Made by a program: the position numbers and the translations under genes | Shown here: piece after piece, positions 2,879 through 49,644 of the stretch | Numbering within the stretch: position 1 is the first letter of the stretch | Layout of the letters: every line of letters starts with the position of its first letter | The notes under the pieces: generated by a model | Databases searched by the model: none | The model's input: only the letters and a program-made list of their open reading frames with translations | What the model was told of the DNA's origin: nothing | Origin: Squatina squatina | Lineage: Eukaryota | Length of the DNA stretch: 52,024 nt | Assembly: GCA_031763465.1 (NCBI GenBank) | Contig: JARFOE010000100.1 | Span: 435,948 to 487,971, forward strand | Reading direction: 5' to 3'

Positions 2879-3855
2879 GATTGTTACCAACAGAGCGTTT
2901 TTGCGTTTACAGAACGCTTGATCGAGTGAACTTTATTCCTGCTCCCCATGGAAGCTCTTTTCTAACTATCAGGTAATGTAATCCCGGATAAGAAAATGGT
3001 GTTTTACTGATGCCTCTGGGTTTAAATAATTAGGTTTTATTGAACCTAATTTCTGTTACAATTGTAAACTTTTTGTCTTGTTTTTATCAACTGCGCCACA
3101 AATGGTTTTGTAAGGAGAGCAACTATTTGAATTATTAACATGCATGTATAAATGAACTGAAACATCTGCACCACTATCCATCATCGTAATAGTCTTCCCC
3201 TATTGGCAAATGCAAAGTAATTCTTTGTAAGGGAGAATGAGGGCAGCAAAATCACACATGTAGGGAGTGTCAACTTCACGGCTGAATTCATTAGTTTTCA
3301 TTTATTTTAATAAGCACATTCAGCACAGTAATGATGTGGGTCTGTTTACAATTTCCTTCCCTTATGTAGATTCCGCCGTGCAAAAAAATAACTGCAGGGC
3401 GATCAGAACCTGAAAGGATTGTCACCCAGGATTCAGAGATCAGATTTGAAGTTATGAATCTAAGCCGGGTTTTTTTTTTGCTCAGAAACTGATTGGCAAG
3501 AACAGCAGTTTGAATATTCTTCACTTACGCGGTGACATAATTAAATAACTGACCTGTCTGTAGTACTCAAAAAGAACCTAGCTTGATACAAATAATTGAA
3601 CATTTATTGCACATTTCAAGACTACTTTTCGTATTGTTCATTTTATTAATTGGTTTTCTTTCCAGCCTGTCACAGTAGTTGTGCCTTATTAGTCAGAGCT
3701 GATTTCAATTAGTAATTAGTCATCAAGACCTGATTTAGAACAATAAATTAATAATTCATTAGGTGAAATGTTGTGAGATGGAACAACCACCTGATCAGTT
3801 CTATAAATGAAAGGCGCTCTTCCTCAGAATTCTGTGACATTCACGATTTTATATC

Positions 3856-4105
3856 AAATCCCCAGGGCTTGATAATCTACATCCCAGAGTACTAAAGGAA
3901 GTGGTCCTGGAAATAGTGGATGAATTGGTAGTCATCTTCCAAAATTCTTTAGACTCTGGAGCAGTTCCTATAGATTGGAGGGTGGCAAATGTAACCCCAC
4001 TATTTAAAAAAGGAGGGAGAGAAAAAATAGGGAATTACAGACCAGTTAGCCTAACATCAGTAGTGGGGAAAATGCTAGAGTCTATTATAAAAGATGTAAT
4101 AACAG
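3856..4105 (+). mobile_element. CR1 LINE ORF2 (reverse transcriptase N-terminal) fragment
   Basis: KSPGLDNLHPRVLKEV...DWRVANVTPLFKKGGREKIGNYRPVSLTSVVGKMLESIIKD is a canonical CR1 RT motif. Confidence 0.92.
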
Positions 4106-9195: not shown

Positions 9196-10231
9196 TGATC
9201 TTGTTGTCTCACCTTCCTCCCTGCCAGTTAGATTGTCATCAGCTTAGATGCTCCAAACCGCACAGATGAAAGTCAGTGGTCTGTGGTATTGATGTTCCTT
9301 CTCACTTATTGTAGTCTTTCCATGGGACTCACAGAGCACTTGGCAATTTTAAAACACAATCTTCCTTTGTGCCTTTTTAATTAGGAAAAGCTTTGAAGTT
9401 GAGGAAACCCTTGGGTTGCTGGTATAATCACAACAATATAAAATGATAAATTTATTGATGTAGAGATCCCAGAAGGTATGTGCTGAGACATAATTCTTTC
9501 AATTTGAAACATTGCACATGCGAGTAATACAAACAAAAAACACAATCACAAAAGTGGGCCAGCTCGTCATCTCCAGAGAGTGATAGAACATAGTTTTAGT
9601 GTGAAGAAACCTATTACTGTTTGGACATCGGAATTCATACCAGAGACACATAAAGTAGGAAGCAATTGGGGATTGGTACTGAGTCATGGGGTATTAATTC
9701 AATTGAACAGCTCTTGTGATTCAAACAGATTTTGAAAATATAGTTTGACTGGTTTAATAACAGCAGCAAATCCCAGCCATGAGGTGAGAGGGGCATGGAG
9801 GCAAGGGGTGTGAGAAAGGTAAGAGGGAGAATGGCCTGTTCTGAGCCTAGTGTCATTCATTTTTATTAAACCTTGTTATCAAAGTCAACAATATTTTCAC
9901 AGTTGCAAATATTGCAGGGGTCATTTTACAAGGCCAGTCTCCTGGTCCAGCAAAGCCTTGCATTGAAAAAGTCAACCTTAAGTTCAAANNNNNNNNNNNN
10001 NNNNNNNNNNNNNNNNNNNNNNNNNNNNNNNNNNNNNNNNNNNNNNNNNNNNNNNNNNNNNNNNNNNNNNNNNNNNNNNNNNNNNNNNCTTGTTCTTGCC
10101 ACCAAAGTGGATACCCTCACATTTATCCACATTATACTGCATGGCATGGGCTTGGTGGGCCGAATAGCCTTCTTCCGTGCTGCAACCATTCTCTGATTCT
10201 ATGAAGGTGTAGCTTTAATAATGACTATAAA

Positions 10232-10492
10232 TCCAATAAGGAATTCAGGAGGAACTTCTTTACCCAGAGAGTGGTGAGAATGTGGAACTTGCTGCCACAG
10301 GGAGTGGTTGAGGCGAATAGCATGGATGCATTTCAGGGGAAGCTGGAGGAGTACATGAGGGAGAAAGGAATAGTATTATATGCCGATAGGGTGAGATGAA
10401 GTAGGTTGGGAGGAAGCCCGTGTGGAGCATAAACGCTGGCATAGACTGGTTATGCCGGGCCTGTTTCTGTGCTGTAAATTCTATGTAATTAT
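10232..10492 (+). mobile_element. CR1-derived 3' end repeat
   Basis: GAATTCAGGAGGAACTTCTTTACCCAGAGAGTGGTGAGAATGTGGAAC encodes RRNFFTQRVVRMWN. Related to 12560-12685 and, in reverse, 39180-39418. Confidence 0.8.
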
Positions 10493-11675: not shown

Positions 11676-12004
11676 AAGAAGTTCCTGGAGTCACGCCTGA
11701 CAACCNNNNNNNNNNNNNNNNNNNNNNNNNNNNNNNNNNNNNNNNNNNNNNNNNNNNNNNNNNNNNNNNNNNNNNNNNNNNNNNNNNNNNNNNNNNNNNN
11801 NNNNNGTGCCTCAATTCTGCAGTCAGCGCCTCCATTGAGCAGTTAGCGCCTCCAAACAACGTCACTCCAGAAAAGTTAAAGAAATGCCGAATTTCCATCC
11901 AAATAATGCCTTCATGGCCAGGCGTGATTAAGGCGCTAAAAAGTGGTGCAACGTTTTTAGCGTGGCGCTACCGAATTTCACCCCCATGTGTAGTGTTCGG
12001 GTTA

Positions 12005-12265
12005 AAGAATACAAAGAGCCTGCATTTATATGTTGCCTTTCATGACCTCAGGACGTCCCAAAGCTCATTCCAGCCAGTGAAGTAATGTTGAAGTGTACTC
12101 ACTGGTGTAAAGTAGGAAACACAGCAGCCAATTTACGCACAGCAAGCTCCCACATACAGCAATTAAATAAATGACTATATTATCTGTTTTAGTGATGTTG
12201 GGTTTCCAAACGTCCTTCATTGGCTGTAAAGTGATTTGGGATGTTCGCAGGGTGTGAAAGGCACA
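12005..12265 (-). mobile_element. 3' half of the DeuSINE-like element, followed by a short oppositely oriented tail piece
   Basis: TGCATTTATAT...GGAAACACAGCAGCCAATTTACGCACAGCAAG, homologous to 44750-44950. Confidence 0.7.
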
Positions 12266-12548: not shown

Positions 12549-13443
12549 AATTACGGAGAAAAGAATAGTAGGATATGTTGATAGGTTTGGGTGGGAGGAG
12601 GCTCGTGTGGAGCATAAATGCCAGCATGGACTAGTTGGGCCGAATGGCCTGTTTCTGTGCAGTAAAATCTATGTCATTCTATATTGTTAATTACACACAC
12701 ATATATACTTCATCCTGAAATCTCTATTTGGTGCCACAGCTTTACAACAGATCAGACTTCCAATTGGTTCTCAACAAGCTGAGCATGTTATTGTCAACCC
12801 CACGGCTTGCTGTGCTCAATGTAGTCTGTAGTTCAGCTAGCCAAGTGGGGAAAGATGGTTGCCAGAGCTTTGCCTCTTTCATTACAAAGAGTGAATGCCA
12901 TGTGTACTTTGCGGACCTGATTTGCATTGCACCAGCTGGTGACATATGCACTCTGAGTATTGCAACAGCTGCCATAGGCACTTTGTTCTGGCCAGATTTC
13001 CTCAGTTCATATTCTTGGATTAATACAAGTGAAGTGAGAGCCTCCTTTCAAAGTGCAGTCATTGATTTTCTGGTAAGATCCATTTGCATTTCCCAGTCAT
13101 CTCAAAGAAGATGTAGGCAAGCAGTGCATCCACAGGCTCCATTAGTGTCATTAATCCCACCTCCTTGGTGTAAATGATCTCCTCCAGCTTCTCTCTCGCC
13201 ACAGCAGAGAGATTATTAACAGCTGATCTAATTTTTTTTCCGCTGTCACTTTGAAAAGTAGATGAACATAGAGGAAAATGTACTGATTGCAGAGCTGTGC
13301 TGATTATAAAGAGGCTTTAATCTGACCAGTGTAAGATTGGAAAACAAATGCCACTGGCCCAGTGCCAGAAAAAAATGATTCAAAAGCTAGACTTTTGTGT
13401 GAAAATACTGCAGCTCAAAACAGGGCTCGAATTAAACCATCAA

Positions 13444-13614
13444 CAAGACAGGCCTATCTACAAAATAGACCTAACTACAAAACAGGCCTACCCACAAAAT
13501 AGGCCTACCTACAGAATTGGCCTAACTACAAAATAGGCCTACCGACAAAACAGGCCTACCCACAAAATAGGTCTTAACTACAAAATCGCCCTACGCACAC
13601 AATAGGCCTACCCA
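13444..13614 (+). repeat. 17-bp minisatellite, about 10 units, consensus CAAAATAGGCCTACCYA
   Basis: Ten consecutive units can be parsed by eye, one of them 18 bp. Confidence 0.9.
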
Positions 13615-16374: not shown

Positions 16375-16790
16375 TCGTAATCAAGTGTCAGAAGGTCATG
16401 GATTCAAGCTCACTCCAGAGACTTGAGAAAATTAACCAGGCTGGCACTTCAGTGTAGTACTGAGGGCGTGCTACAGTGTCGGAGGTGCTGTCTTTCAGAT
16501 GAGACGTTAAACTAAGGCCCGTTTGCTCTCTCAGGTTGACGTAAGTGATTCCATGGCATATTCAGTGAAGAGCAGGTAAGTTCTCCCCGGTGTCCTGGTC
16601 AATGTTTATTCCTCAATCAACACCTAAAAAACTGGCCATTTATCGCATTGCTGTTTGTGGGATCTTGCTGTGTCGGTGGCCACATTTCGTAAAATACAAC
16701 AGTGGCACTTAAATAAGTACTTAATGAGCTGTATCTTTGGGGCATCCTGAGGTTGTGAAAGGCACTTAATAGATGCAAATTCTTTCTTTA
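16375..16790 (+). mobile_element. Near full-length DeuSINE-like element
   Basis: B-box-like GGATTCAAGCTC head, GGTGTCCTGGTCAA, core GATCTTGCTGTG, tail AAAGGCAC..ATAGATGCAAATTCTTTCTT. Confidence 0.75.
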
Positions 16791-16863
16791 TAATAGTAAA
16801 ATGTACTTTGCTTAGGTGGAACATTATGTTCCGAGACTAATGTCACAATGTGTGATTTTACAG

Positions 16864-16918
16864 CCCCAATGGAAGTGCTGTTCTCATTCGATGTGGGTAA
16901 TGGTCCATCTGAGGTTAC
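16864..16918 (+). CDS. Copy A CASPR/CNTNAP5-like gene, 5' part of the laminin-G3 exon ([18 protein letters not shown]), truncated by an N-gap
   Basis: TTTTACAG acceptor (AG 16862-16863), phase 1. FSFDVGNGP is the CASPR LamG3 motif. Homologous to the start of the - strand exon at 33328. Confidence 0.9.
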
Positions 16919-17018: not shown

Positions 17019-17247
<229 letters not shown>

Positions 17248-19112: not shown

Positions 19113-20192
19113 GTCAACAGACTGTTCTAAACATGACAAACACATAGCTCCATTTCTCCTGCTGCTGGATCCCACAGATCTCAGGTGGACAGCTTTCCCT
19201 CTCATGTTTCTCTATAACCCTTCAACCACCCAGTTGATATCTGCTGAGATAGGGAAGCCGCTTCTCGGCGCAATGGAGGTTATAAACCCTGCAGCCTGCC
19301 ATTCCGCGATAAGACATATTGGAGGTCTCACTCCACCTGGTATGAGAAGTGAAACTGTAGGAGCTGCTTTTCTCAGACACGCAGCAGTGCAACTAGAGCC
19401 TTAGTTCACACGCGACCTTTGCTCTACCCAACCTGAGATTACTCGATGCCTGAGTGTTCAGTCCCCAGCAATGATGTTCCATCACCTTGATGAGAACAAG
19501 ATCCTCTATATTAAATCAAGGTGGTTTTTGTTTGAAAGTAATTTGAATTATTATCATTTTGTACGTGCCTGCTTAAACATCGTCCCAATGTCAGAAGGCC
19601 CAGTATTCACGACCCATACCATTGAAAACAGGCACTGTGCACAAGAACACACTCAAAGAGAGCATCTTGGCATCAGCAGTTGTGCAAGAGGGGGGTCTCC
19701 ATCTCCCCCTATGCCCAACACATGGCAGGATGGGGTGAACCAGGCCTGGATGGTGAGCTCAAAAGTTCTGATGAATTGATGATAATTCATTGAATATCTT
19801 CATCATCAGAACCCACATATTATAAGGAAACAAGGTAAGTGGGGAAATTGGAGCCCTCTTTAAAAAAAAAAATGCCCATTCCCCATTTTATATTATTAAC
19901 ATTCCCAATCAACCTAATGATCAATGCGTCTGCCCAGTCTGAAAATGGATTGATTGCAATTTGAACGGGCGAAACTGTCCCCATCAGGAGGGCATCTTGT
20001 CAGCTCGTATTATGGAGGGGCTTTACCAGGGGTTTGGCACGGTTCACAGCTCTATTTGCCTTGTATCCATGGGCTTTTCCATTGTGCCTGTTTTTGCTGT
20101 AAGTTTCGGATCGACTCTTTCTGAAAGCTTGGTGTCCTTTTACTTTTAAGCTTCATATCTTGTAAATTGAAAGCAACCAACTTTTGTTGCAG

Positions 20193-20326
20193 GGAGTCTC
20201 CAGATCAGATACAAGCTGGATAATGATAAAGACACCGATATCTTCAGCATCGATGGCAGAAGGTTGGCAAATGGACAACTCCACAGTGTGAAGATTGATC
20301 GGGAAGGAAGGGATATCTACATTCAG
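20193..20326 (+). CDS. Copy A CASPR/CNTNAP5-like gene, laminin-G4 exon (GSLQIRYKLDNDKDTDIFSIDGRRLANGQLHSVKIDREGRDIYIQ); absent from the ORF track
   Basis: TTTTGTTGCAG acceptor (AG 20191-20192), CAG|GTAATG donor. 134 nt, phase 1/0, no stops. GSLQIRY...ANGQLH..I.REG matches CNTNAP LamG4, and the size matches the recalled CNTNAP2 exon 20. Confidence 0.92.
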
Positions 20327-21721
20327 GTAATGCAGCCATTTGTTCAACAAGAACATTAAAAGTGCAAACACAAAGATGGTTTTAGTTGAAATTGAGAAAG
20401 CAAGTTCTAGGGTCACCATGGAATTTGCAAAGTGTAGGAGAGAACAGTAGATAAGGCAAAATGCAATCATTTCAACAGGATGCAGACTGTGCAATTAAGG
20501 GAAGATGAAAGGAAGTAAGGAGTTCAGTCATTTTGAGGCCAGCGGAAAGAATGAATTTGAGAAAATGAAATGAGTCTTTATTTCAACACAGTGAAAGTGC
20601 ATGGATAAGGAAGGACATATTTGGCATTTGGGAGAGGTAAGACAAAGTTCAGAGCATCATTAACTACATATCAATAAAAAGNNNNNNNNNNNNNNNNNNN
20701 NNNNNNNNNNNNNNNNNNNNNNNNNNNNNNNNNNNNNNNNNNNNNNNNNNNNNNNNNNNNNNNNNNNNNNNNNNNNNNNNNACCCAGAGGCGAGAGTGCC
20801 ACTCATTGAGGCACAGGAATTGGGAATGTCAGCGGGTGGAGGATTGGAGATAACTGAGCCTTGAGGTGATGGAGTAAGAGTGAAGCAGCGTAAATCAGCG
20901 CTCCTGTTTAGCAGCTATCCTGTTGCATTCCTCTCATCTTCACAGCACTGTTCTCTTCATGATTGACTGAAAATCACATTTGGCAATTTATTGCTTGGTT
21001 GGCTTCAATATTTCCCCTAATGTCCCTGTAGATTTCTTNNNNNNNNNNTCGATGTGTAAACAAAGAATAGGGATGTGCATGTGAGAAAAAAACTTGGAAC
21101 CTGTTGGCTTTCCTTAATTAAATCAGGTCTAGATTTTAATTATCAGACTTAAGTGATAAATCATCAAAATTCAATGAAAAATGCAGACTTCTTCACATCT
21201 GTACATCTGAATAAGGTTTGGACATAATCCGCTGGAGTGAGCAGCACTGCAGCACTCTGCATGGTCCAGTGACTAGAAATAAGGATCATGTTTACTTAGT
21301 TCCCACTCAGCAGCCCCTTTACTGGCACCATTCCCCATGTGACAGACAGGCCATTAGTTGCAGATTCATGCATTCGCTTTACTGCCTGATAGCCATCTGC
21401 TGCCTGCGGTGACNNNNNNNNNNNNNNNNNNNNNNNNNNNNNNNNNNNNNNNNNNNNNNNNNNNNNNNNNNNNNNNNNNNNNNNNNNNNNNNNNNNNNNN
21501 NNNNNNNNNNNNNTGGATTATCACTCCAGTAACGTAACCACTATGCTACCGTACCCTATATTTCCTTATATGGCTTGGAGTCAAATTTTGTTTGATAATC
21601 GCTCCTGCACAGTGCGTTGGGATGTTTTACGACGTTAAAGATGCTATATAATGCGAGTACCGGTAGTTTTTACAGTGCCCTGAATGTACAGTTTCTATTG
21701 TATGAGTACCTGGCAAGTCTT

Positions 21722-21728
21722 TACTAAC
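21722..21728 (+). promoter_or_regulatory. Perfect U2 branch-point consensus TACTAAC before the terminal exon of copy A
   Basis: TACTAAC about 30 nt upstream of the CAG acceptor (AG 21753-21754), followed by a pyrimidine tract. Confidence 0.7.
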
Positions 21729-21754
21729 TTTTCTACTCCCTGTAAAATTCACAG

Positions 21755-21951
21755 GCGTGATAGCGATGGTGATCTTTGTCATCCTCTGTATCGTCGCTGT
21801 GATGGGTCGTTTGCTGTACAGACACAAAGGCACGTACCGCACCAACGAGACAAAGGGGGCGGAGTATGCCGAGAATGCAGAAGGCTCACTGAAGAACAAT
21901 GCCAATTACCAGGACTCCGTTAGCGAAGGCAAGAAGGAGTATTTCATCTGA
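21755..21951 (+). CDS. Copy A terminal exon: transmembrane helix, protein-4.1-binding (GNP/4.1m) motif and PDZ ligand (GVIAMVIFVILCIVAVMGRLLYRHKGTYRTNETKGAEYAENAEGSLKNNANYQDSVSEGKKEYFI*); CNTNAP5/glycophorin-C-like
   Basis: Acceptor AG 21753-21754, phase 1, 197 nt to TGA 21949-21951. Hydrophobic stretch followed by RHKGTY and C-terminal KEYFI. Confidence 0.95.
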
Positions 21952-22180
21952 CAGCGATGCAAGCCCTCCTTATTACTACAGTTACAGCAGCAAGTTAATA
22001 ACACTACAGCCGGGACTCGCTGTCTGTGCTATGAGTCAGCTCCAGACTAAACGGCCAAACGTTAACGTTCTAAGTACGCGGCACATGACAAATGACTGGT
22101 TTACACTTTTGTTCACTTTGACAGGACAGGGATAAAACCTATTGTTTCCTGCTAACTCTAGGTCAGCTCAGGGGAGTAGA
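21952..22180 (+). other. Proximal 3'UTR of copy A, homologous in inverted orientation to the 3'UTR of copy B (about 27775-28006)
   Basis: Aligns by eye with the reverse complement of 27775-28006. Shared blocks include ATTACTACAGTTACAGCAGCA, GGGACTCGCTGTCTGTGCTA, GACTGGTTTACACTTTTGTT and AACCTATTGTTTCCTGCTAA. Confidence 0.88.
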
Positions 22181-22858
22181 AATAAGAATTTTGTAAACTC
22201 TATGTGAAAACAGCAGAGAAAAAAATTACCATTATATTAATGTACTGCATGAAAAATAAGCAACTATTCACTCTTATTTTCTGTTTGGTTTCTGTTGATG
22301 GTTTTCCCACCAGATTTTCTCCCCACTGATTCAGTGCTGACTCAGTCTGGGGTAAGGTTTCTGGCAACCCTCCAGCACCTGATAAGCCAACAACAACAAC
22401 TTGCATTTATATAGCACGTTCAACATAGTAAAACGTGCCNNNNNNNNNNNNNNNNNNNNNNNNNNNNNNNNNNNNNNNNNNNNNNNNNNNNNNNNNNNNN
22501 NNNNNNNNNNNNNNNNNNNNNNNNNNNNNNNNNNNNNNNNNNNNNNNNNNNNNNNNNNNNNNNNNNNNNNNNNNNNNNNNNNNNNNNNNNNNNNNNNNNN
22601 NNNNNNNNNNNNNNNNNNNNNNNNNNNNNNNNNNNNNNNNNNNNNNNNNNNNNNNNNNNNNNNNNNNNNNNNNNNNNNNNNNNNNNNNNNNNNNNNNNNN
22701 NNNNNNNNNNNNNNNNNNNNNNNNNNNNNNNNNNNNNNNNNNNNNNNNNNNNNNNNNNNNNNNNNNNNNNNNNNNNNNNNNNNNNNNNNNNNNNNNNNNN
22801 NNNNNNNNNNNNNNNNNNNNNNNNNNNNNNNNNNNNNNNNNNNNNNNNNNNNNNNNNN

Positions 22859-23271
22859 TCACACAGACACACACACGCACAGACACACTTCCACACACAC
22901 AGACACACTCACAGAGACAGACACTCACACAGACACACACACAGATACACACACCACACACACAGATGCACTCACACAAACACAGACACAGTCGCACAGA
23001 CACACTCACACACAGACACTCACACAGACACACACACGCACAGACACACTTCCACACACACAGACACACTCACAGAGACAGACACTCACACAGACAGACA
23101 CACAGATACACACACCACACACACAGACACACTCACAGGCACACAGACGCACACACACATAGACCCTCTCACACAGACACACACACAAACACACTCACAG
23201 ACACAGACACACTCACAGACACAGACACTCAGACAGACATACACACAGACACACTCACACGCACATAGACA
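22859..23271 (+). repeat. Complex CA-rich repeat (ACAC/ACAG/ACTC) with a 161-bp higher-order duplication
   Basis: The block starting at 22859 recurs at 23020, including the rare CACTTCCAC and CACCACAC variants. Confidence 0.88.
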
Positions 23272-23878
23272 CTGGACTCCTGACAAATATCCCTTTCCTG
23301 GCGAAGCCCGCTAATGTCAATTTTAGCATCCCTATTGTTAGCCCAGCTGAAATCAGCTATCTCAGCACAGGCCAAGATTCAAGCTGTTCATATATGCTAG
23401 AACGTGTATAGAGTGCGCATGTTTGGCAAGGCAATGCAGACAGATGTTTAGTAAATCAAGGCAACAGTAATCAAGGAATGTCGGATGGAATGACTGACAC
23501 TGAGCTACAGTAAGAAGGCGCTGGTGGATCTTGATATTAGTTACACGTGGTAACTGGGATGTAGGCTTTGGGAGACCATAGCACCAACATCCCTGACACC
23601 AACCAATGCAAAAAAACATCTCCGGAGTTCATGTTCGTCATTTCCCGCATAATGGTAATTTTTCACTGCTTTTATTTAATTCCATTTTATGAAAATCTTG
23701 GGTCTAATCCTATGACCTGACCTCAACGACATTTCCGTACTGTAATACACGTTCTTTTTGTACCCGGAATGTGAAACGACCGACTATCTTGCGACTTAAT
23801 TAACACGGGAGATGTTGGCTCTCTGAGTGATCATAGTGCCAGATGGAGCTGAGTCCTTTACTCCATTATTCACCATAT

Positions 23879-23882
<4 letters not shown>

Positions 23883-23910
<28 letters not shown>
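23883..23910. repeat. (TA)14 microsatellite
   Basis: Perfect TA run. Confidence 0.95.
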
Positions 23911-23915
<5 letters not shown>

Positions 23916-24922
23916 AAAGTGCTTTGTAAATTATTTTTGTGATGTACAGCAGAACTCCACCCCAAGCACAAACTGTTTTCAGGGTTAACATGCTGGAGCG
24001 TCACGCACACGGGAAAGTGGAACAGAGAGCCCGCTGCTTCTCTTGTTTCCGAAAGCTTCATATGAGAATGAAGGGCAGGAAAAGACCAGCTGGCCCAACC
24101 ATCCTGACCCACACCTGCTGGCTGGAGCTTCACGATCAGACTCTTCCTACATGCTCCACCTCCCTCCCAACCCGCTCACGCCGTCCCACAACCATATAAT
24201 CTCCCGGGAGAGGCACAGAAACAGAGAGAGACCTTGTGAAGGAGACTTTGTAAATGGCGTCCTTGGCACCTTCCTGATTGTCCACCTGTGATCCAATCAG
24301 ACTTTTCCCAACACATTATGTGAAATCTTTCCTATGAGGCGGAACAAGTTTGAGTAAATATTCTGAGCTTTATTTATTATTTCGGTAACCGGTGTAGATG
24401 ATGGTTATCATGCTATGGCCGTTTTTAGTTTGTCGCTTTGAACCATCTGACCTCAGAAACCATCATGGTTAGAACATGGCCCTGGGGAGCAAAGCTGATT
24501 GTGCATTGTAAAGAGGTGTGTGCTATTCCGAAAGTCCCATTGTACCGCGAAGGATGTCTCATAGTCACAATGCGTTAATCGTGCAAACAAATAACTTCAG
24601 AACCAAAAGCTTTTTGTTGGGTCGAAGTGAGAGCCTGACTGAACTTGAGACAAAATGATGGCTTGGATTGGCAAATAACTGAGTGATGTCCAGCCTTAAA
24701 CATGAGCTCGGTTTTGCCTCTTTATAAAATGTCACCGTGCACAGACGTCCACCAAAGTTAACCTGTTATATAAAGGATAAAGGGCTGGGTGCAAATGAAT
24801 GGGCACTGTTTGTGGGTGCAGCNNNNNNNNNNNNNNNNNNNNNNNNNNNNNNNNNNNNNNNNNNNNNNNNNNNNNNNNNNNNNNNNNNNNNNNNNNNNNN
24901 NNNNNNNNNNNNNNNNNNNNNN

Positions 24923-25000
24923 TGAGAGTGTCAGCCTAGATTTTTATGCTCAAGTCTCGGGAGTGGGACTTGAACCCACAACCTTCTGACTCAGGGGCAA
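24923..25000 (-). mobile_element. 5' head of the DeuSINE-like element
   Basis: GTGTCAGCCTAGATTTTTATGCTCAAGTCTC...GGACTTGAACCCACAACCTTCTGACTCAG. The - strand contains the B-box GGTTCAAGTCC. Confidence 0.7.
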
Positions 25001-25779
25001 AAGTGACAAGTGTGAAAGAGAATCGCAAAGACCATGAAATATGTTGACTTTAGATAATGCCCATTGTCTGCCAGGCATCAGCATACATTACACTTTAAGC
25101 TGTGTGGTAAAACGGAATTGATGACTAACTGCTAATCTTAATCGTAACGGCAATAACTGAGCACCCCCTGTTGGATTCTTGCAAATGCCACATTAGAAAA
25201 TCTCCAATAGAAAGTAGGAACTTTTTAAAACGAAGTGACATTTGACGCCAGACATGGGATTAATAAAGATGAAGTGAAATAAAGATGAATGAGAAGAAAG
25301 GTTATGTTGAATAATGTATTATGTCAGTGAGTTCCTAACTCTTGTCACAAGAGCCAATGTTGGAAAATGGAATGAGATTCACTACTGATGCTATTTCATT
25401 TAACAGCTCAGTATGATCGATGCTTGTTTTCATACACGGTACTCCAAGAGGAGTTAGACAGGTTGCCCTTACCTGCATGTAGAAGGCCGGATAGGCTGTT
25501 GAAGCTTGAAGCTTTTCAACTACAGGCCCCGATTTTTAACTCAGGGCGGGTTTTGGGCTGGTGGGGACCGCAGAACTCAAGGCCCAGGCTATGCAAAGGC
25601 CCAGGCCCCGTGAATACCTCGCCAGTTCACTTCCCGCCAGTTCTGCCAGGCAGGAAGTGGCGGAAAATCTCATGGCCGGGGCAACAGGCAATTAGCAAGG
25701 TTGGTGCCCAGGCCGTGCTGTGTCCTGTGGGGGTTCTGCAATTAGCCATGGCGGGGGGGGGGGGTATAAAAAGAGTAGG

Positions 25780-26793
25780 GCATCATGGGTGATTTTAATC
25801 TTCATGCTGATTGGGTTAATCAAATTGGAAATGGTAGCCACGAGAACAAATTCATAGAGTGCATTCGGGATAGTTTCCAAGAGCAATATGTTGTGGAGCC
25901 AACCAGGAATCAGGCTATTTTGGATCTGGTAATGTATAATGAGGCAGGTTTAATAAATGATCACAGAATAAAAGATCCCCTCGGAAGTAGTGATCATAAC
26001 ATGATAGAATTTAGCATTTAGTTTGAGAGTGAGAAACTTGGGTCTGAAACAACTGTGTTAAACTTAACTAAGGGAAATTACAAAGGAACGAGGACAGAGT
26101 TGGCTAAAGTGGACTGGACAAATAGATTAGCAGGTAAGACAGTAGACAAGCAATGGCAGACATTTAATGAGATAATTCATGACTCTCGGCAAAAATATAT
26201 CCCAGTGAGAAGGAAAGATTCTGAAGGAGGGATGAACCAACTATGGCTAACCAAAGAAGTTAAGGAGGGTATTAAGTTGAAAGAGAAAACATATAAAGGT
26301 GGCAGAAGTTAGTGGTAGGCCCGAAGATTGGAATAAATTCAGAATCCAGCAAAGGAGGACTAAAAAAAAAAGAGAGAAAATAAACCGAGGGCAAACTAAC
26401 GAGGAATATAAAAACTGACAAGATCTTCTTTAAATATATAAAAATGGAGAGGTCTAAGTGAACATAGGCCCCTTAGAGAATAAGGCTGGGGAAATAGTTA
26501 TGGGGAACAGAGGAGTTGAACAGATATTTTGCATCAGACTTTACGATGGAAGATACTATGAACATCCCATTAATACTAAAAAAATGTGGGGGAGGAATTA
26601 AATACCATCACCATCATTAGAGAATTAGTTGTTGGAAAACGAATGGGGCTGAAGGCTGATAAGTCCCTGGCCCTGATGGTTTGCATCCTAGGATCCTAAA
26701 AGAAGTGGCTACAGACATAGTGGATGCATTGGTTGTAATCTTCCAAAAATCCTTAGATTCTGGAGAAGTACCGGAGGATTGGAAAACTGCCAA
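25780..26793 (+). mobile_element. Degraded CR1 LINE ORF2, from the endonuclease C-terminus to the start of the RT
   Basis: IMGDFNLHADW...VEPTRNQAILDLV...PLGSSDHNMIEF (APE endonuclease), then LHPRILKEVATDIVDALVVIFQKSLDSGEVPEDWKTA. Multiple stops and frameshifts. Confidence 0.92.
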
Positions 26794-27774
26794 NNNNNNN
26801 NNNNNNNNNNNNNNNNNNNNNNNNNNNNNNNNNNNNNNNNNNNNNNNNNNNNNNNNNNNNNNNNNNNNNNNNNNNNNNNNNNNNNNNNNNNNNAGAATGG
26901 AGATAATTGGGTCATTTCCCCGTCAATCATGATTGGAGGCTGCACTGCTGTGGGCCACTGGGTTTGATTTTACATACATAATTTGTATTATGTAACTGTC
27001 CTTCGCTCACTGTGTTTTGCTGAAGAAACCACCCTTCTTTTATGGGGAGACGTTGCTGTAGTTTCAGTCAGTTCTGTTTGCAGTTGTTTATGGAGACTCT
27101 GCTTAATTAGACTCGTTTTGCTACTTGCTAATTAAATAGGCTCTATTTGCTGCAAGTCCTGCCATAAGCTCCACCCTGCCTGCAACTCATTGGCTGACAC
27201 ATTGGTGTCAATAGCCATTCTGGTGAAGCTAGGCTCACGTTGCCAAGAGTCATGGGCCTTGTGAGTGTGTTGGGGCACAGCTGACATTTAACTGGCTAAA
27301 ACTCCGCAGTTAACCTGCCTGACTTTAGCTTCTGATCGTAATAGATCGGAATATGCTCTGTTATGATTTATGTAACAGTAAGTCCCAATTTAGAAAGGAG
27401 CATGCCGGGAGTTCTTTAGGCTAAAACTATAGTATGAGCAATTGTGACCGTATGTGTGTAGCTTCCTCTAATAATCGATTAGATCACCAAATCAGCAATG
27501 GTAAATTGGGTGCTGAGCAAGAATGCAGGTCTCACCATAAACTAGCACTTAACCAGCTTGTCAACCTTATTCGCAGTTAACCTGGTTAATGGATAAATAA
27601 ATAAATTGGTCCCTCCGCAAAAAAAAATACAGAAATAAATTTTGTGAAGATAACCAAAATATCTGGTTACAATTGAAAGTTTATATTAATGGTTTACATC
27701 ACTCGGAGGAGGAGTGTCAATACATTTTAAATAGCTGCTGTTATTGTAACCTTAAATTTGTGGATTCTCCATTC

Positions 27775-28006
27775 TCTCCCCTGAGCTGGCATTTATTAGC
27801 AGGAAACAATAGGTTATATCCCTGTGCTGTCAGGTAAACAAAAGTGTAAACCAGTCGTTTGTCATATGCCGTGTGTTTTGAGCGAACTTTTGGCCATTTA
27901 GTCTGCAGAGTCTGGAGCTAACTCTTAGCACAGACAGCGAGTCCCAGCTGTTAGTGTTATTAATCTGCTGCTGTAACTGTAGTAATGAGGAGGGCCTGTA
28001 TCGCTG
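27775..28006 (-). other. Proximal 3'UTR of copy B, with a candidate AATAAA signal at 27792-27797
   Basis: Directly follows the stop codon and is homologous to 21952-22180. TTTATT on the + strand at 27792-27797. Confidence 0.82.
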
Positions 28007-28203
28007 TCAGATGAAATACTCCTTCTTGCCTTCGCTTACAGAATCCTGGTAATTGGCATTGTTCTTCAGTGCGACGTCTGCATTCTCAGCATATTCCGTT
28101 CTTTTTGGTTCGTTATTTTGATACGTGCCTTTGTTCTGGTATAACAAACGTCCCGTTATAGCAAAGATGCAGAGGATGACAAAAATCACAATCGCTATAA
28201 CAC
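28007..28203 (-). CDS. CNTNAP5: Copy B CNTNAP5-like terminal exon (GVIAIVIFVILCIFAITGRLLYQNKGTYQNNEPKRTEYAENADVALKNNANYQDSVSEGKKEYFI*)
   Basis: Acceptor AG at 28205-28204 on the contig edge. 197 nt, same length and phase as the copy A terminal exon. TM helix and EYFI PDZ ligand as in CNTNAP5. Confidence 0.93.
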
Positions 28204-29346
28204 CTNNNNNNNNNNNNNNNNNNNNNNNNNNNNNNNNNNNNNNNNNNNNNNNNNNNNNNNNNNNNNNNNNNNNNNNNNNNNNNNNNNNNNNNNNNNNNNN
28301 NNNNNCTGCTGGAGAATTCATGCAACAATGTTTAACTCTTGCCCAGAGGTGAGTTCAGGAACTCAGTTTAATGGCGGATGGTGTCATGAAGATTGTGATT
28401 GTAAAGTCCTGTCCCATCTAAAACAGAACAGTGCCAATCGCTTGTGTTACCATGCCAGTTTAGCTCCACCCAGTTACAAATTAGAGATTCCACGGCAGCA
28501 CAAATTATGCACAATTGGAAGAAATGACCTTTTCATTATTCCATTCATTATTGAGGGGATTGAGGAAACAGCGAGCGGGCATTTTGAATACCACCTACGC
28601 TTTAGTAACTTCGTATCGAGGCACACTCTAAGCAGGCAGCACTCCCAGCCTCTCTCCGACTTGTGGTTTAAAAGTGTAAGACACATGGACAAGGGATGAG
28701 AAACAGATACCTGTACATGTCCAGAGATCTCTCTCAGTGACATTTATGGTTATGCAACAGTTCAGATAAATACTCTTCATTATGCAGCTGAACAAACAGC
28801 GGGTGTGCTGCAACAGTCTTATCTATGAATCTGGCATGACTGAGATTTTAGCTTAAGTAGTATAATGGCAAAAGGTTACTGGTGAACGTCTACTCATTCT
28901 GGCAGATATAATTATGCAAGTAACGCACAAGGTAGGGTGGGCCAGCTAATGTCCATTGCTGAGGTATAATTTTCAATAGCGATGTGACATTTATTATAAA
29001 TGTAAGCGTGACATTTAAAATGGAAAAATTTGAAAGGCACTGAATCAAGCTTTAAAGCCTCATTATTGTTGGAATCACTTTCACATTTTCTTATCTTTTT
29101 ATGGTCACTTAATTAGAAACGGAAATTGAAAAAAAAAGTAATCTAATAATGAATAAAGATAATAGAGCTAAGAGGGTGTGAATGATAATGAAAAACATTT
29201 GAACACAATTAACTCTCTCCGAGAACCCAATTTGATTTTCATCCTAATTTGTTGCTTTTTTCGAAAGTTTAAGGCGACTTAAAAATGCAAAGCTGCAGTG
29301 TAAATCTTATGTTGCAAGATTATCTTAATGCTTGTGATTTATCTTG

Positions 29347-29975: not shown

Positions 29976-30293
<318 letters not shown>

Positions 30294-33044: not shown

Positions 33045-33368
<324 letters not shown>

Positions 33369-37238: not shown

Positions 37239-37436
<198 letters not shown>

Positions 37437-39179: not shown

Positions 39180-39418
39180 TGCACAGAATTACATGGAATG
39201 TACAGCAGAGACACAGGTCGGTCGGTCTTTATGCCTCATATGAGCCTCCTCCCACCCCTCTTATCTCACTCTATCAGCATAACCTTCTATTCCTTTTTCC
39301 CTCATGTGCTTATCTACATTCACCTTACATGCATCTAGGATATTCATCTCAACTACTCCCTGTGGTAGCAAGTTCCGCAGTTTAACCGCTCTCTGAGTAA
39401 AGAAGTTTCTCCTGAATT
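39180..39418 (-). mobile_element. CR1-derived 3' end repeat
   Basis: The - strand reads FRRNFFTQRAVKLRNLLPQGVVE. Reverse homologue of 10232-10492. Confidence 0.8.
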
Positions 39419-41224
39419 NNNNNNNNNNNNNNNNNNNNNNNNNNNNNNNNNNNNNNNNNNNNNNNNNNNNNNNNNNNNNNNNNNNNNNNNNNNNNNNNNN
39501 NNNNNNNNNNNNNNNNNNCAGGCAGAGTGAGTTGAATAGCAAACCTTCAGTGCCGTAAATTTATATGATTCTATGAAACCGTAAAATAATACTTCAAGGT
39601 GATAAGTAAAATAGACAATAGAAAAAAAACGTTTACTCAAAGGGTAATAAATGCATCCATAGTCGAAGCAATTAGGGCATTCTAAATGCATTTGGATGTT
39701 AACTTGGGGTCGATGCAGTACTGGAGGGACAGCTGCACTGGAAGCTAACTAGATGGAGTTAAGATACAGATCAGCCAGGATCCAATTGAATAGCGGAGTA
39801 GGCTCGAGGGAACAAATGACCATTACTGATTCTTGACTTTACTTATCTCTTGTCATGCGACTGCACCTGTACAAGATCTCTGTTGTATTCCTGTGCAAAA
39901 TTATTAGCTCATAAGTGTTCTCCCATCTCTCCATACACTGTAACCATAATATAAAACTATTTATAGTCTAACCAGAATACGGAAATGCTGAGTTCAGTGC
40001 TTTAATTACTTGTAAACTGAACAAACAGCTGTCGGGTTTTTTAATTTACTTAGCTACTAGTTTTCTCAACATTAGGTCCCCATATGTAACAGTAATTAAA
40101 CCCACCACATGTGGAAAATAAATCAGAGAGCAGACTGTTCTTTAGTGGACGTTTTAGTTAGTAATGAAACTAAACACAGCTGTGCAGACTGGCGCTGTGA
40201 TCACACCACAAAAGTTATTAAGTGTGGCTTAGAACGGTTTATCGGCAATGGACATAATACAATCTGTTGATAGTACAGCCAACATACTTGCAACGTAATT
40301 TTGAAAAATCTACATACTGAGGGGCACCGGGGAACAGAGTTTTCAGCAAAGTGCTGTTAGAAACAGTTTGAAGTGTCGTGTAAGCAAATGAGATGTTAAT
40401 GGGTAGAAGGTAGGTTGTGCAGCTGGGTAGGGCTTGCATTCTCATTCATTGCCGCCTGCCTGTCGCGACCACAGTTCAAAGTCAGCACCTCCACATCACG
40501 GCCACAAATAGGCAGCATTCTGCTGGCCTTGAATAAACTCTCACTGGATGTGAATGCATAATGTGTCGACAGCCCCAAATTCAGCCCTAAATTCACAAGT
40601 GATGAAATGGTAAGGCAAATGGCAGCAAAAGAACTACAGCTTTCTATTGGTCTTGAAGTAAGTGATGGGTTTGCAATACAGAGTTAAGGTCTTTGGTGTG
40701 CGGTTGTTGTTGTGCTGTGTTGCAGGGTAGATTAAGGGCCAATATGTCAGCCGCAGGCTGATGAGGACCCTGATCCCCGAGTAAGGGTATGGCCCTGTAT
40801 GAAACTTCACCTTTAAGAGGAGGGGTATGGCCCCTTTAAGACCTTCCTGTTAAAAAGGTAATTGTAACTGAGTGGGAGGAGAATTCCCACAGTCAGCTGA
40901 GCATGAAGGTTCAAAAGAAGTAAGCAAAGCTGGAAGATGTACTGTCTGGTCTTCTTTAATGTCAGGAGGTTTCCTCAGATGACCACCTGTTTCTAACTGC
41001 CCTGCCTGTACACCCCCACCATTGGTTGCCTGACTCATCCATCCTCGCACCGCTTTGTTACCCAGTTGGATGAATCTCGATCATCAGTTAGACAGACTTT
41101 TCTTCCCTTTATTTCTTAATTTTCTTTACACCCCGAAGTTTTGTTTTCTCCCGGGTTTTACTCGCAGCAGCTTCTGGGGAGATTAATCCTTAATTCCTGG
41201 AGACTCCAGGACAATCAACCCTAC

Positions 41225-41415
41225 CCTCAACCAACACTGCCAAAACAGGTAAATGGTCAGTCACCTCATAGATATATGTGGAATATTGCAATGTGTAAAA
41301 TGGCTGCCAAGTTTGCAAACAGTGACTACATTTCAAAAGTACTTAATTGGTTGAGACCCTTTGGGATGTCCTGAGATTGTGACAGGTGCTATATAAATAC
41401 AAGTTTGTTCTTTCA
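41225..41415 (+). mobile_element. 3' half of the DeuSINE-like element
   Basis: AAAATGGCTGCC...ACAGTGACTACATTTCAAAAGTACTTAATTGG...GGTGCTATATAAATACAAGTT. Confidence 0.65.
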
Positions 41416-42772
41416 TTTTCTGAATTATGCACTACAGTCAGTTTTCTGATATATTGCTAGCCTCAAAGATTTTCTAAAAAAATTAAACATAATATATAAA
41501 ACACATACAGATTGGAGGGTCCTATTTAACTTCCGTACGCATAATAACATAATGCCACTCTGAGGAAAAGCCTAAAATGTAGTTGCTGAACTGAAGTAGA
41601 TGCGATTATATTGATGCTACATTCCTCACCATATTTACTGCTGACTCACTGAACTGCATGTAGGTATTGACCACTAAGAGATTCTCTGAGGGCTAGTTAG
41701 GAATATAATTAGCTTTCTATGGACTTTATACAGACTTTNNNNNNNNNNAATGTTGACAGGCATACCAGTGACTTCTTTTTGTTAACACTAATTCATTCAT
41801 AGTTTACCGTACCTAATCGTTCCGTGATAATCAATGCTACAGCCTACACTTCTTCATTTAATGATAATAAATCACTTAATTATGCTGCGTGTAAGACTAC
41901 ATGCCCTTAACAAAAATTTCAAGACCTGGAATTGTAATATTAATCTAATATGCCCTCTTAGACATGAAAAAGGTGGACACGTGCAATTATAGCACTTGAA
42001 ATTCTGATTCAGCTGCAGTGCTGCCAACCAGAAAACAAGGAAATGCAAAAAGAAAGTGGTCACAGCCAAAGAACAGAATGAACCTACACTGCACATAAAT
42101 TAAATGCAAAGGAAGTTGATAGTTTTGCCATGCTTTCCAGTATTACTTCCAACATATTAGTTGCTAAGCCCACTTTCTTAAATGCACTCAACTCCTGATG
42201 CTGATGGAATAATATAACATTTCTAAGACTCATTTACATTTTATTCATCATTGTAAACGGTTAAATCAGTTAATTGTCAGCAGCTCATTTGCACTTAAAC
42301 TGTCTGGGGTAAAGACAGGGACACGAGAAGATTTTCAAAAAATAGTTTTCATATGGTTCTGTACCCTCAACAAATTGACTTTTGCATGGTGGAGATGTTG
42401 GGGGAGAAAACATGCTGGAGTACAGTGATTTTCACTGGAGACTCAAATAAAACTGGTTGCCCAGAACAGTTTCAGTTCAAAATATGAATTAAAGAGCAGC
42501 AAGTCCAGCAAAAAATAAAATCCATTTACTTTACTAATATGATTATGACAGACTGGGATGTAGAAAATGTAATTTGTAAAAGTTTTACCATACTGCAGGA
42601 GTTCTACCTCCTAATAAAAGAATCACTAGTTTTATTTTGCACTTGAACATAAAACTTCAGCCACTTTTTATTNNNNNNNNNNNNNNNNNNNNNNNNNNNN
42701 NNNNNNNNNNNNNNNNNNNNNNNNNNNNNNNNNNNNNNNNNNNNNNNNNNNNNNNNNNNNNNNNNNNNNNNN

Positions 42773-42912
42773 CTACAGTGAATGATGTACAGCCCCTCGC
42801 CCCTCTTCCCCTACAGTGAATGATGTACAGCCCCTCTCCCCCAGAGTGAATGATGTACAGACCCTCGCTCCCCTCTACAGTGAATGATGTACAGCCACCA
42901 GCCCCTACAGTG
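42773..42912 (+). repeat. Minisatellite with a constant CAGTGAATGATGTACAG core and a variable C-rich spacer (4 visible units, extending from a gap)
   Basis: The core is repeated four times at roughly 30-38 bp spacing. Confidence 0.9.
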
Positions 42913-44749: not shown

Positions 44750-45139
44750 AAAAGAAAGACTTGCATTTATATAGCACCTTTCACGACAACCGGACATCCC
44801 AAAGCGCATTACATCCAACAAAGTACTTTTTGAAGTATGGTCACTGTTTAATGTAGGAAACATGGCAGTCAATTTGCTCACACCAAGCTCCCACTAACAG
44901 CAATGTGATAATTACCAGATAATCTGGTTTTGCTATGTTGATTGAGGGATAAATATTGGCCAGGACACCAGGGATAACTCTTTTTCAAAATAGTGCCATG
45001 GGATCTTTTATGTCCACCTGAGAAAGCAGAAGGTTTAACATCTCATCCACAAGATGGCAACTCCGATATGCAGCAGTCCCTCTGTACTGTAGTGTCAGCC
45101 TAGATTTTTGTGCTCAAGTCGCTGGAGTGGGAATTGAAC
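44750..45139 (-). mobile_element. Near full-length DeuSINE-like element
   Basis: Reverse homologue of 49240-49644 over tail, core and head. Confidence 0.78.
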
Positions 45140-49239: not shown

Positions 49240-49644
49240 TGGTTTCAAGTTCCACTCCAGAGACTTGAGCGCAAACATCTCGGCCGACACTCCAGTCCAG
49301 TAATAAGAGAGTGCAGCACCAGCGGAGGTGCCTTCTTTCAGATGCAATTTAAAACAAGGCTCCGTCTGAGCTCTCAGGTGGATGTGAAAGGTCCTGTGGC
49401 ACTATTTTGAAGAAGAGCAGTGGAGTTATCCCTGGTGTCCTGTCCAATATGTGTCCCTCGATCAATATCACAAAAACAGATTATCTGGTTACTATCACAT
49501 TGCTGTCTGTGGGGCCTTGCTGAGTGCAAATTGGCTGTCATGTCTCCTACATTCCAATAGTATCTACACTTCAAAAGTACTTTGTTGGCTGTAAAGCAGT
49601 TTGGGACGTCCGGTGGTCGTGAAAGTCGCTATATAAATGCAAGC
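49240..49644 (+). mobile_element. Near full-length DeuSINE-like element
   Basis: GGTTTCAAGTTCCACTCCAGAGAC head, TGCAAATTGGCTGTC core and GCTATATAAATGCAAG tail shared with the L2 3' ends in this window. Confidence 0.78.

What the first reader, a model, noticed from the sequence alone, without database searches (positions are those of the whole stretch)
21889..22180. Identity step: last 20 codons and 3'UTR are more similar between paralogs than the upstream coding part of the same exon
Hand alignment of A versus B gives 33 differences in the first 134 nt of the terminal exon (about 75% identity), only 3 synonymous differences in the last 63 nt (about 95%), and about 9 in the first ~98 nt of 3'UTR (about 91%). 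The UTR stays alignable for about 230 nt. Non-coding sequence being more conserved than adjacent coding sequence suggests a gene-conversion tract between the inverted copies, or a strongly constrained RNA element spanning the stop codon.
Basis: partly seen in the sequence, partly recalled or inferred. Interest (0 to 1): 0.7.

Follow-up and report, generated by a model that had tools for sequence, protein, structure and literature searches.

The report
Shark Caspr paralogs swapped gene ends
Two very old neighbouring copies of a nerve-cell adhesion gene in a cartilaginous fish share a nearly matching tail end, most likely because one copy overwrote the other long after they had diverged, a known process seen here in a new gene family.

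Summary
The counts hold: 33/134, 3/63, and 8 substitutions plus indels in 98 UTR bases. A and B are the 3' ends of two tail-to-tail CNTNAP (Caspr) genes, two of three ancient elasmobranch paralogs. The coding step is weaker than claimed: about half the upstream differences are replacements, and silent divergence within the exon alone is not significantly uneven (p 0.05-0.20). The UTR is the solid anomaly: 25/222 mismatches (K 0.12) against background dS 1.43. Mismatches are evenly spread, with several indels, no fold and no Rfam match. Across 14 shark and ray proteins the last 20-29 residues evolve faster than the ectodomain yet carry no paralog signature (dlnL +9.9/+13.3 against at most 3.6 in control windows). 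Carpet-shark paralogs group by lineage in the tail (ortholog tree rejected, p-AU 0.0006) and are closest to each other in one internal exon. Best reading: old non-allelic gene conversion of about 320 bp (21862-22178), plus moderate UTR constraint. UTR DNA from other species could not be obtained, so pure constraint is not excluded. Known mechanism, new family; interest 0.4.

The parts
21862..22178 (+). Proposed conversion tract in copy A: last 29 codons, stop and about 227 nt of 3' UTR. The 5' edge lies between 21862 and 21887.
   Evidence: dS 0.25-0.28 for codons 36-64 against 1.43 background, LRT p 0.001-0.002 (boundary chosen from the protein alignment); UTR 25/222 mismatches
27775..28096 (-). 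Matching tract in copy B
21755..21951 (+). Last coding exon of gene A (paralog group A1): transmembrane helix, juxtamembrane segment, cytoplasmic tail ending KKEYFI, stop
   Evidence: AG acceptor and translation; tblastn to shark CNTNAP5-like proteins
28007..28203 (-). Last coding exon of gene B (paralog group B); the upstream intron is an N gap (28206-28305)
   Evidence: 95% identical to P0007, 67-77% to A-type proteins; gap list
21952..22178 (+). Alignable 3' UTR of A
   Evidence: 88.7% identity to B, 17 transitions and 8 transversions, K2P 0.124
27775..28006 (-). Alignable 3' UTR of B
27792..27797 (-). AATAAA hexamer in B, UTR base 210, ending 17 nt before similarity stops; absent at the matching place in A. 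Its role as a poly(A) signal is inferred from the recalled consensus only.
   Evidence: chance of such a placement about 0.04, noticed after the fact
21922..21958 (+). Longest identical stretch between A and B (37 nt, across the stop)
17020..17217 (+). Gene A EGF-domain exon (5' part in an N gap); background pair with B 30016-30290
   Evidence: Pfam EGF E 3.3e-07; pS 0.64, pN 0.048 against B; 95-98% to A1 proteins
30016..30290 (-). Gene B EGF-domain exon
16862..16918 (+). Gene A laminin-G exon, 5' piece; background pair with B 33276-33326
   Evidence: pS 0.84 over 17 codons; 94-100% to A1 proteins
33060..33329 (-). Gene B laminin-G exon
   Evidence: Pfam Laminin_G_2 E 6.9e-13
20192..20335 (+). 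Gene A laminin-G exon piece; no B counterpart visible
37257..37424 (-). Gene B internal exon (residues about 696-750), a second patch where A1 and B look homogenised
   Evidence: 91% to A1 P0002 and 89% to B P0007
47036..47137 (-). Gene B early exon piece (residues about 131-164)
   Evidence: 94-97% to B proteins, 74-79% to A-type

Best explanation
A and B are two of three CNTNAP genes that arose by local duplication before sharks and rays split. Long afterwards, non-allelic gene conversion copied about 320 bp (last about 29 codons, stop, proximal UTR) from one onto the other. The tract has since decayed to about 11% UTR divergence and dS about 0.25. Shown: the divergence pattern, the three paralog groups, the loss of paralog signal in the tail, and lineage-wise grouping of paralogs in carpet sharks. 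Inferred: (1) the exchange is DNA-level recombination between neighbouring inverted copies; (2) it persists here because last exon plus UTR is a long unbroken island of similarity while introns no longer align; (3) the 5' edge is held by selection, since B keeps its own juxtamembrane residues in all 4 B proteins while the terminal residues are interchangeable; (4) the UTR also evolves somewhat slower than silent sites. Direction and exact date are not determined. With Ks about 0.2 per 100 My (PMC9122587, section 7, quoting Hara 2018), the UTR gives at least about 60 My and tract dS about 130 My (interval about 45-335 My).
For: UTR K 0.124 against background dS 1.43 (0.98-2.35); tract dS is compatible with the UTR value (p 0.12-0.42), background is not (p about 1e-27). 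UTR mismatches are unclustered (permutation p 0.10-0.95 on four measures), with about 6 indel events, as expected for decay after one homogenisation. The last 20 residues are not tightly constrained: shark-ray orthologs differ at 0.28 there against 0.16 in the ectodomain, yet cross-paralog distance is 0.25-0.26. Collapsing the three paralog stems improves fit by 9.9 (last 20), 9.0 (without KKEYFI) and 13.3 (last 29) log units; maximum 3.6 in 60 and 41 non-overlapping ectodomain windows, of which 6 and 3 were positive. With bony outgroups the last 20 residues give paralog stems 0, 0, 0 and a shared stem 0.26, against 0.10, 0.09, 0.14 and 0.06 in the ectodomain. Carpet-shark A1 and A2 differ at 1 of 46 and 1 of 44 tail residues but 26% overall; A1 orthologs differ at 9 of 46; ortholog topology rejected for the tail, p-AU 0.0006, and strongly preferred for the ectodomain. 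Carpet-shark A1 and B differ at 2 of 55 residues in an internal exon, fewer than either from its nearest ortholog (4 of 55). Precedent in sharks: tail-to-tail scpp/sparc-L (PMC9122587).
Against: No UTR DNA from another species was available, so the decisive tree was not run. Within the exon alone the silent step is not significant (p 0.05-0.20); fourfold sites show none (2/5 against 18/43); any-window permutation p 0.23. The window's last 20 residues equal those of P0007, so lineage-specific sharing between A and B themselves is not shown in the tail. Stegostoma A2 and B tails differ at 14 of 44 and Scyliorhinus A1 and A2 at 7 of 46, so homogenisation is not recent everywhere. For the A1-B pair the tail is not unique: dlnL 8.8 against 7.5 at residues 710-738, and 37 of 454 overlapping windows match its distance ratio. 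Carpet-shark comparisons are across genera, use 90%-cluster representatives and predicted gene models, and the alternative topologies were chosen after seeing the data. Background dS rests on 115 codons.
Confidence: 0.72

Rival explanations
1. No exchange: purifying selection on a shared element covering the protein tail and about 230 nt of UTR has kept both copies alike since duplication.
For: Silent step within the exon not significant. KKEYFI-type end conserved into bony vertebrates. UTR divergence (0.11) is below tract pS (0.25), though not significantly (p 0.16). Paralogous conserved non-coding sequences exist near brain genes (PMC3595034, abstract start and 3 passages; no identity figures seen).
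Against: Needs the UTR to evolve at about 0.09 of the silent rate (0.124/1.43), as slowly as replacement sites in the same exon (p 0.28), while taking about 6 indel events and showing no invariant core (longest run 21, permutation p 0.95). No fold, covariation or Rfam match. The protein tail is fast-evolving among orthologs. Constraint cannot make carpet-shark paralogs group by lineage.
Confidence: 0.15
2. RNA-templated conversion: a cDNA of one paralog's transcript end recombined into the other, giving a tract that starts in the last exon and stops at the poly(A) site.
For: Similarity ends 17 nt after an AATAAA in B (chance about 0.04, after the fact). All three paralog pairs show tail homogenisation anchored at the stop.
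Against: A lacks the hexamer. No transcript data. An internal exon far from the 3' end is also homogenised. A constrained short UTR would end at the same place. The intron before B's last exon is a gap, so intron involvement could not be checked.
Confidence: 0.07
3. Artefact: mis-joined short contigs in the window, or chimeric gene models in the database.
For: 42 N runs, 33 of exactly 100 bases; both last exons sit on short pieces (21514-22439, 26894-28205); a 37-nt identical stretch spans the stop. Database proteins are predictions.
Against: The UTRs differ at 11% plus indels throughout, so they are not collapsed reads. The loss of paralog signal is seen in independent assemblies across 14 proteins. 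P0002 keeps the Met seen in 4 of 4 A1 proteins in the transmembrane part of the same exon, where 3 of 3 shark A2 have Thr or Ile (ray A2 also have Met), which argues against a borrowed exon.
Confidence: 0.06

Closest known systems
Elasmobranch scpp / sparc-L pair (PMC9122587; passages and section 7 read)
   Same: Tail-to-tail local duplicates older than the shark-ray split; discrete converted patches; converted regions group by shark lineage while the rest groups by paralog.
   Different: There the patches cover 5' coding exons and are recent enough to pair by species. Here the tract is the 3' end with UTR, has decayed by about 11%, and three paralogs take part.
Capitella Dlxa/Dlxb; hexapod engrailed/invected (PMC3199776, passages; the engrailed work seen only as cited there)
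   Same: Tail-to-tail duplicates with mosaic conversion running from coding into adjacent non-coding sequence.
   Different: Conversion there centres on the most conserved domain, with 100% identity in Capitella. Here it covers a fast-evolving tail and is old.
Human RHD/RHCE (PMC12962860, passages)
   Same: Tail-to-tail paralogs that exchange segments.
   Different: Young duplicates over 90% alike throughout; here background silent sites are near saturation.
CNTNAP4/CNTNAP5 (Caspr4/5) of bony vertebrates
   Same: Laminin-G and EGF domains, one transmembrane helix, tail ending in a similar EYF-hydrophobic motif.
   Different: The three elasmobranch genes form their own clade (SH-aLRT 100) and A and B are neighbours. 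One-to-one orthology with CNTNAP5 was not shown.
Paralogous conserved non-coding sequences of vertebrates (PMC3595034, abstract start and passages)
   Same: Non-coding similarity between old paralogs of brain genes.
   Different: Here similarity runs continuously through silent coding sites, tolerates indels, and comes with tree discordance.

Membership tests
Non-allelic gene conversion tract | Local divergence at non-coding or silent sites far below the paralog background | tested here: met
   UTR 25/222 against 55/88.8, p 7e-19; codons 36-64 dS 0.25-0.28 against 1.43, p 0.001-0.002
Non-allelic gene conversion tract | Silent step detectable within the exon alone | tested here: inconclusive
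   p 0.05-0.20
Non-allelic gene conversion tract | Paralog signal lost in the tract and kept outside it, across species (protein level) | tested here: met
   Stems collapse in last 20-29 residues, not in the first 17 cytoplasmic residues for B
Non-allelic gene conversion tract | Paralogs group by lineage in the tract | tested here: inconclusive
   Met for A1-A2 tails in carpet sharks (p-AU 0.0006) and suggested for A1-B at residues 696-750; not shown for the A-B tail itself
Non-allelic gene conversion tract | Same grouping in UTR DNA of several species | not testable with these tools
   No vertebrate DNA collection is offered
Non-allelic gene conversion tract | Bounded tract | tested here: met
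   3' edge at 22178, beyond it z 0.41; last paralog-diagnostic residue at 1283 of 1312
Conserved structured RNA element | Folding better than shuffles | tested here: not met
   z +0.71 and +2.08
Conserved structured RNA element | Compensatory changes | tested here: not met
   0 of 57 pairs, two sequences only
Conserved structured RNA element | Match to an Rfam family | tested here: not met
   0 matches at gathering score in the whole window, 4227 families
Conserved non-coding element (sequence constraint) | Conservation among orthologs far above neutral | not testable with these tools
   No ortholog UTRs available
Conserved non-coding element (sequence constraint) | Patchy conservation with invariant cores | tested here: not met
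   Four clustering measures p 0.10-0.95; modest power with 25 mismatches
CNTNAP (Caspr) family | Laminin-G and EGF domains, transmembrane helix and tail, in family order | tested here: met
   Pfam hits for 3 of 6 exon peptides, none informative for the other 3; exon order by tblastn; 9 of 9 hits CNTNAP5-like or a fragment of one
CNTNAP5 ortholog | Groups with bony-vertebrate CNTNAP5 to the exclusion of CNTNAP4 | tested here: inconclusive
   Own clade; beside CNTNAP4 under midpoint rooting (quick tree; careful search unfinished); no CNTNAP2 outgroup in the set
Glycophorin C (GYPC) | Short ectodomain without laminin-G or EGF domains (recalled) | tested here: not met
   Upstream exons encode laminin-G and EGF domains

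The most novel reading that the evidence does not exclude
Three Caspr genes in sharks and rays have kept exchanging a 3' module (terminal residues plus proximal UTR) for hundreds of millions of years through an RNA intermediate that ends at the poly(A) site. Selection keeps ectodomains and B's juxtamembrane segment distinct, so different adhesion heads share one scaffold-binding and mRNA-control foot.
Probability: 0.07. Interest if true: 0.72.

Novelty: new member of a known kind. Interest (0 to 1): 0.4.

Why it matters
It adds a long-lived, three-way case of mosaic gene conversion in a neural adhesion family of slowly evolving vertebrates, at a depth where silent sites elsewhere are near saturation. 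The edge of the tract falls between a paralog-specific juxtamembrane segment and a shared tail, which offers a natural test of where selection stops conversion. Practically, tails and UTRs of these genes mislead orthology calls, probes and antibodies. The mechanism itself is well known, with a shark precedent. I found no paper on this cluster in the library searches, which miss most subscription journals.

Tried and rejected
Structured RNA across the stop: rejected. GYPC identity: rejected. Recent duplication of the whole gene: rejected, since background dS is 1.43 and introns do not align. A duplicated block reaching into the intergenic space: no inverted match with E below 0.09 in 22179-27774. 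The pooled background included an exon pair out of register; its Nei-Gojobori pooled values were discarded and redone. The window scan reused stale output for windows where some proteins lack the exon; redone. The careful tree did not finish; quick trees are quoted. Rows left out: 14 of 17 elasmobranch clusters found were used; P0001 (167-residue fragment), P0016 (isoform of P0015) and P0123 (model without the last exon) were dropped. Members of the 90% clusters could not be listed, so same-species trios and per-species tails stayed unchecked. No chimaera protein appeared in the 9, 120 and 120 rows listed. Literature searches: searches gave one irrelevant abstract book (listing only), one search gave 20 listed of 216 with none on shark CNTNAP by title or abstract start, searches gave 0, one search gave 2, one search gave 4, one search gave 8, one search gave 5. 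The bacterial, phage and plasmid DNA collections were not searched, having no bearing on a vertebrate UTR; the metagenome and viral contig collections stayed unchecked. No structure or complex prediction was run.

Full report
What the region is. Self-comparison of the window finds two exon-sized inverted matches, 21753-22189 with 28205-27764 and 17026-17219 with 30209-30016. They are exons of two convergent genes, A on the plus strand and B on the minus strand. Pfam finds EGF and laminin-G domains in upstream exons. All 9 hits to A's last exon are from sharks or rays, 8 named contactin-associated protein-like 5 and one a fragment of such a protein. tblastn shows four exon pieces of A and five of B. 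The source is therefore a cartilaginous fish, most likely a shark: B's last exon is 95% identical to P0007 and 83-92% to ray B proteins. The scaffold has 42 N runs, 33 of exactly 100 bases, and most exons are missing, so the 5.6 kb spacing is a minimum and the layout rests on scaffolding.

The observation. The UTR aligns to 22178 with 25 mismatches in 222 columns, K2P 0.124; past that point, and in the intron tested, scores equal shuffles.

The coding step is weaker than it looks. About half the upstream differences are replacements. Silent divergence is 3/12.0 in the last 20 codons against 16.5/32.3 before them (p 0.17-0.18; codon model p 0.05-0.08). Against pooled silent sites it reaches p 0.008-0.027; fourfold sites show no step (2/5 against 18/43), and some 20-codon window this quiet arises in 23% of permutations. 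The edge at 21887 comes from three replacements in 5 nt, and at the first A alone departs from 14 of 14 relatives. Taking the protein-defined edge (codon 36, 21862), tract dS is 0.25-0.28 against 1.43 (0.98-2.35), p 0.001-0.002. The strong anomaly is the UTR: p 7e-19 against silent background.

Constraint or conversion, from the window alone. Neither copy folds better than shuffles (z +0.71, +2.08), 0 of 57 consensus pairs are compensatory, and Rfam gives 0 matches. UTR mismatches are unclustered on four measures (p 0.10-0.95), and about 6 indel events are tolerated. Constraint alone would need the UTR at about 0.09 of the silent rate. Tract dS is compatible with the UTR value (p 0.12-0.42). 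This fits one homogenisation followed by decay, but two sequences cannot prove it.

Cross-species test on proteins. Three searches gave 17 elasmobranch clusters; 14 were used. They fall into three clades, here A1, A2 and B, each with sharks and rays, together forming one clade apart from bony CNTNAP4 and CNTNAP5 (quick trees). Window A is A1 and window B is B by their upstream exons. Paralog pairs of one species share the same longest-contig length in three species, which suggests one cluster. In the last 20 residues shark-ray orthologs differ at 0.28 against 0.16 in the ectodomain, so the tail is not tightly constrained, yet cross-paralog distance is only 0.25-0.26. Setting the three paralog stems to zero improves the likelihood by 9.9 (last 20) and 13.3 (last 29); control windows reach at most 3.6, positive in 6 of 60 and 3 of 41. 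With outgroups, the last 20 residues put all change on the shared stem (0.26) and none on paralog stems. In the first 17 cytoplasmic residues B stays distinct (stem 0.72) while A1 and A2 do not.

Lineage-specific exchange. Carpet-shark A1 (P0002) differs from carpet-shark A2 at 1 of 46 and 1 of 44 tail residues despite 26% overall divergence, while A1 orthologs differ at 9 of 46. The ortholog topology is rejected for the tail (p-AU 0.0006) and preferred by over 670 log units for the ectodomain; the alternatives were chosen after inspection. At residues 696-750 carpet-shark A1 and B differ at 2 of 55, fewer than either from its nearest ortholog (4 of 55), so the pair seen in the window appears to exchange elsewhere too. 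Against: the window's last 20 residues equal those of P0007; Stegostoma A2 and B tails differ at 14 of 44 and Scyliorhinus A1 and A2 at 7 of 46; for A1-B the tail signal (8.8) barely exceeds the internal patch (7.5), and 37 of 454 overlapping windows match its ratio. These proteins are predicted models and cluster representatives, and no species gave all three.

How it most likely works. Local duplication made three genes early in cartilaginous-fish history (shown as tree shape; date inferred). Neighbouring copies recombine non-reciprocally in islands of surviving similarity (inferred; PMC3966223 passages say conversion occurs between adjacent paralogs in either orientation and in interspersed high-identity regions). 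The last exon plus UTR is such an island. Exchange of the terminal residues and UTR was tolerated, whereas B's juxtamembrane residues were kept, which would fix the 5' edge (inferred; that these segments bind protein 4.1 and PDZ scaffolds is recalled knowledge of the family, not tested; one search shows only a source's neurexin/syndecan/glycophorin domain name). Using Ks about 0.2 per 100 My (PMC9122587 section 7, quoting Hara 2018, not seen), the last A-B exchange is at least about 60 My old by the UTR and about 130 My (45-335) by silent sites. The absence of any paralog-diagnostic residue in the last 29 across sharks and rays implies an exchange near the shark-ray split or separate ones in both lines. 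I put DNA-level conversion at 0.72, pure constraint at 0.15, RNA-templated conversion at 0.07 and artefact at 0.06. The RNA-templated idea rests on an AATAAA (recalled consensus) ending 17 nt before the tract's end in B, absent in A, chance about 0.04 after the fact.

Comparison with what is known. It works like the tail-to-tail scpp/sparc-L pair of sharks (PMC9122587; passages and section 7 read; its supplements with the Ks values were not opened and bear on the dating). It also resembles Capitella Dlx (PMC3199776, passages) and RHD/RHCE (PMC12962860, passages). It differs in covering the 3' end with UTR, in age, and in involving three genes. PMC3595034 (abstract start and three passages) shows paralogous conserved non-coding sequences exist but gave no figures to compare. 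The genes belong to the CNTNAP family; CNTNAP5 orthology is unproven and GYPC is rejected. Searches found no paper on this cluster (listings only).

Verdict. The feature is real. It is a new member of a known kind; interest 0.4. The multi-species UTR alignment remains the decisive test and could not be run here.

Noticed in passing
P0002 against P0004 and P0006, last 46 residues: A third paralog (A2), not in the window, shares its cytoplasmic tail with A1 in carpet sharks (1 of 46 and 1 of 44 differences; 26% overall). A1 and A2 have no diagnostic residue after position 1236 of 1312.
   Followed up: yes
window 37257-37424 (-); protein residues about 696-750: Second A1-B homogenised patch: carpet-shark A1 and B differ at 2 of 55 residues; the window's B exon is as close to A1 as to B. 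A's copy of this exon is not visible in the window.
   Followed up: partly
protein windows starting at residues 220, 270-310 and 620: Weaker A2-B stem-collapse signals (dlnL 2.6-5.0 among 126 overlapping windows) may be further old patches or noise.
   Followed up: no
whole window: 42 N runs, 33 of exactly 100 bases. Only 4 exon pieces of A and 5 of B are visible; B jumps from the EGF exon to the last exon in 1.8 kb, and no A exon was found before 16854. Gap sizes look nominal.
   Followed up: partly
21882-21886: Three replacement changes in 5 nt between A and B; at the first, A departs from the Asp of all 14 relatives. They create the apparent sharp edge.
   Followed up: yes
2604-2879, 12004-12201, 16385-16789, 41224-41418, 44746-45139, 49235-49644, 22389-22439, 24926-24994: Dispersed repeat family, copies 68-92% alike. 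Resembles a shark SINE (recalled, not tested). One piece lies about 210 nt downstream of A's tract.
   Followed up: no
3838-4104, 26620-26793, 10205-10396, 39184-39418: Repeat fragments whose translations resemble LINE reverse-transcriptase ORF pieces (recalled, not tested).
   Followed up: no
13443-13612; 22859-23272; 42773-42913: Tandem arrays: 17-nt unit, 9.5 copies; CA-rich 161-nt unit between the two genes; 30-38-nt unit.
   Followed up: no
trees: All three elasmobranch genes are annotated CNTNAP5-like but form their own clade; three ray-finned fish proteins named CNTNAP5 (P0124, P0158, P0174) group with CNTNAP4.
   Followed up: partly
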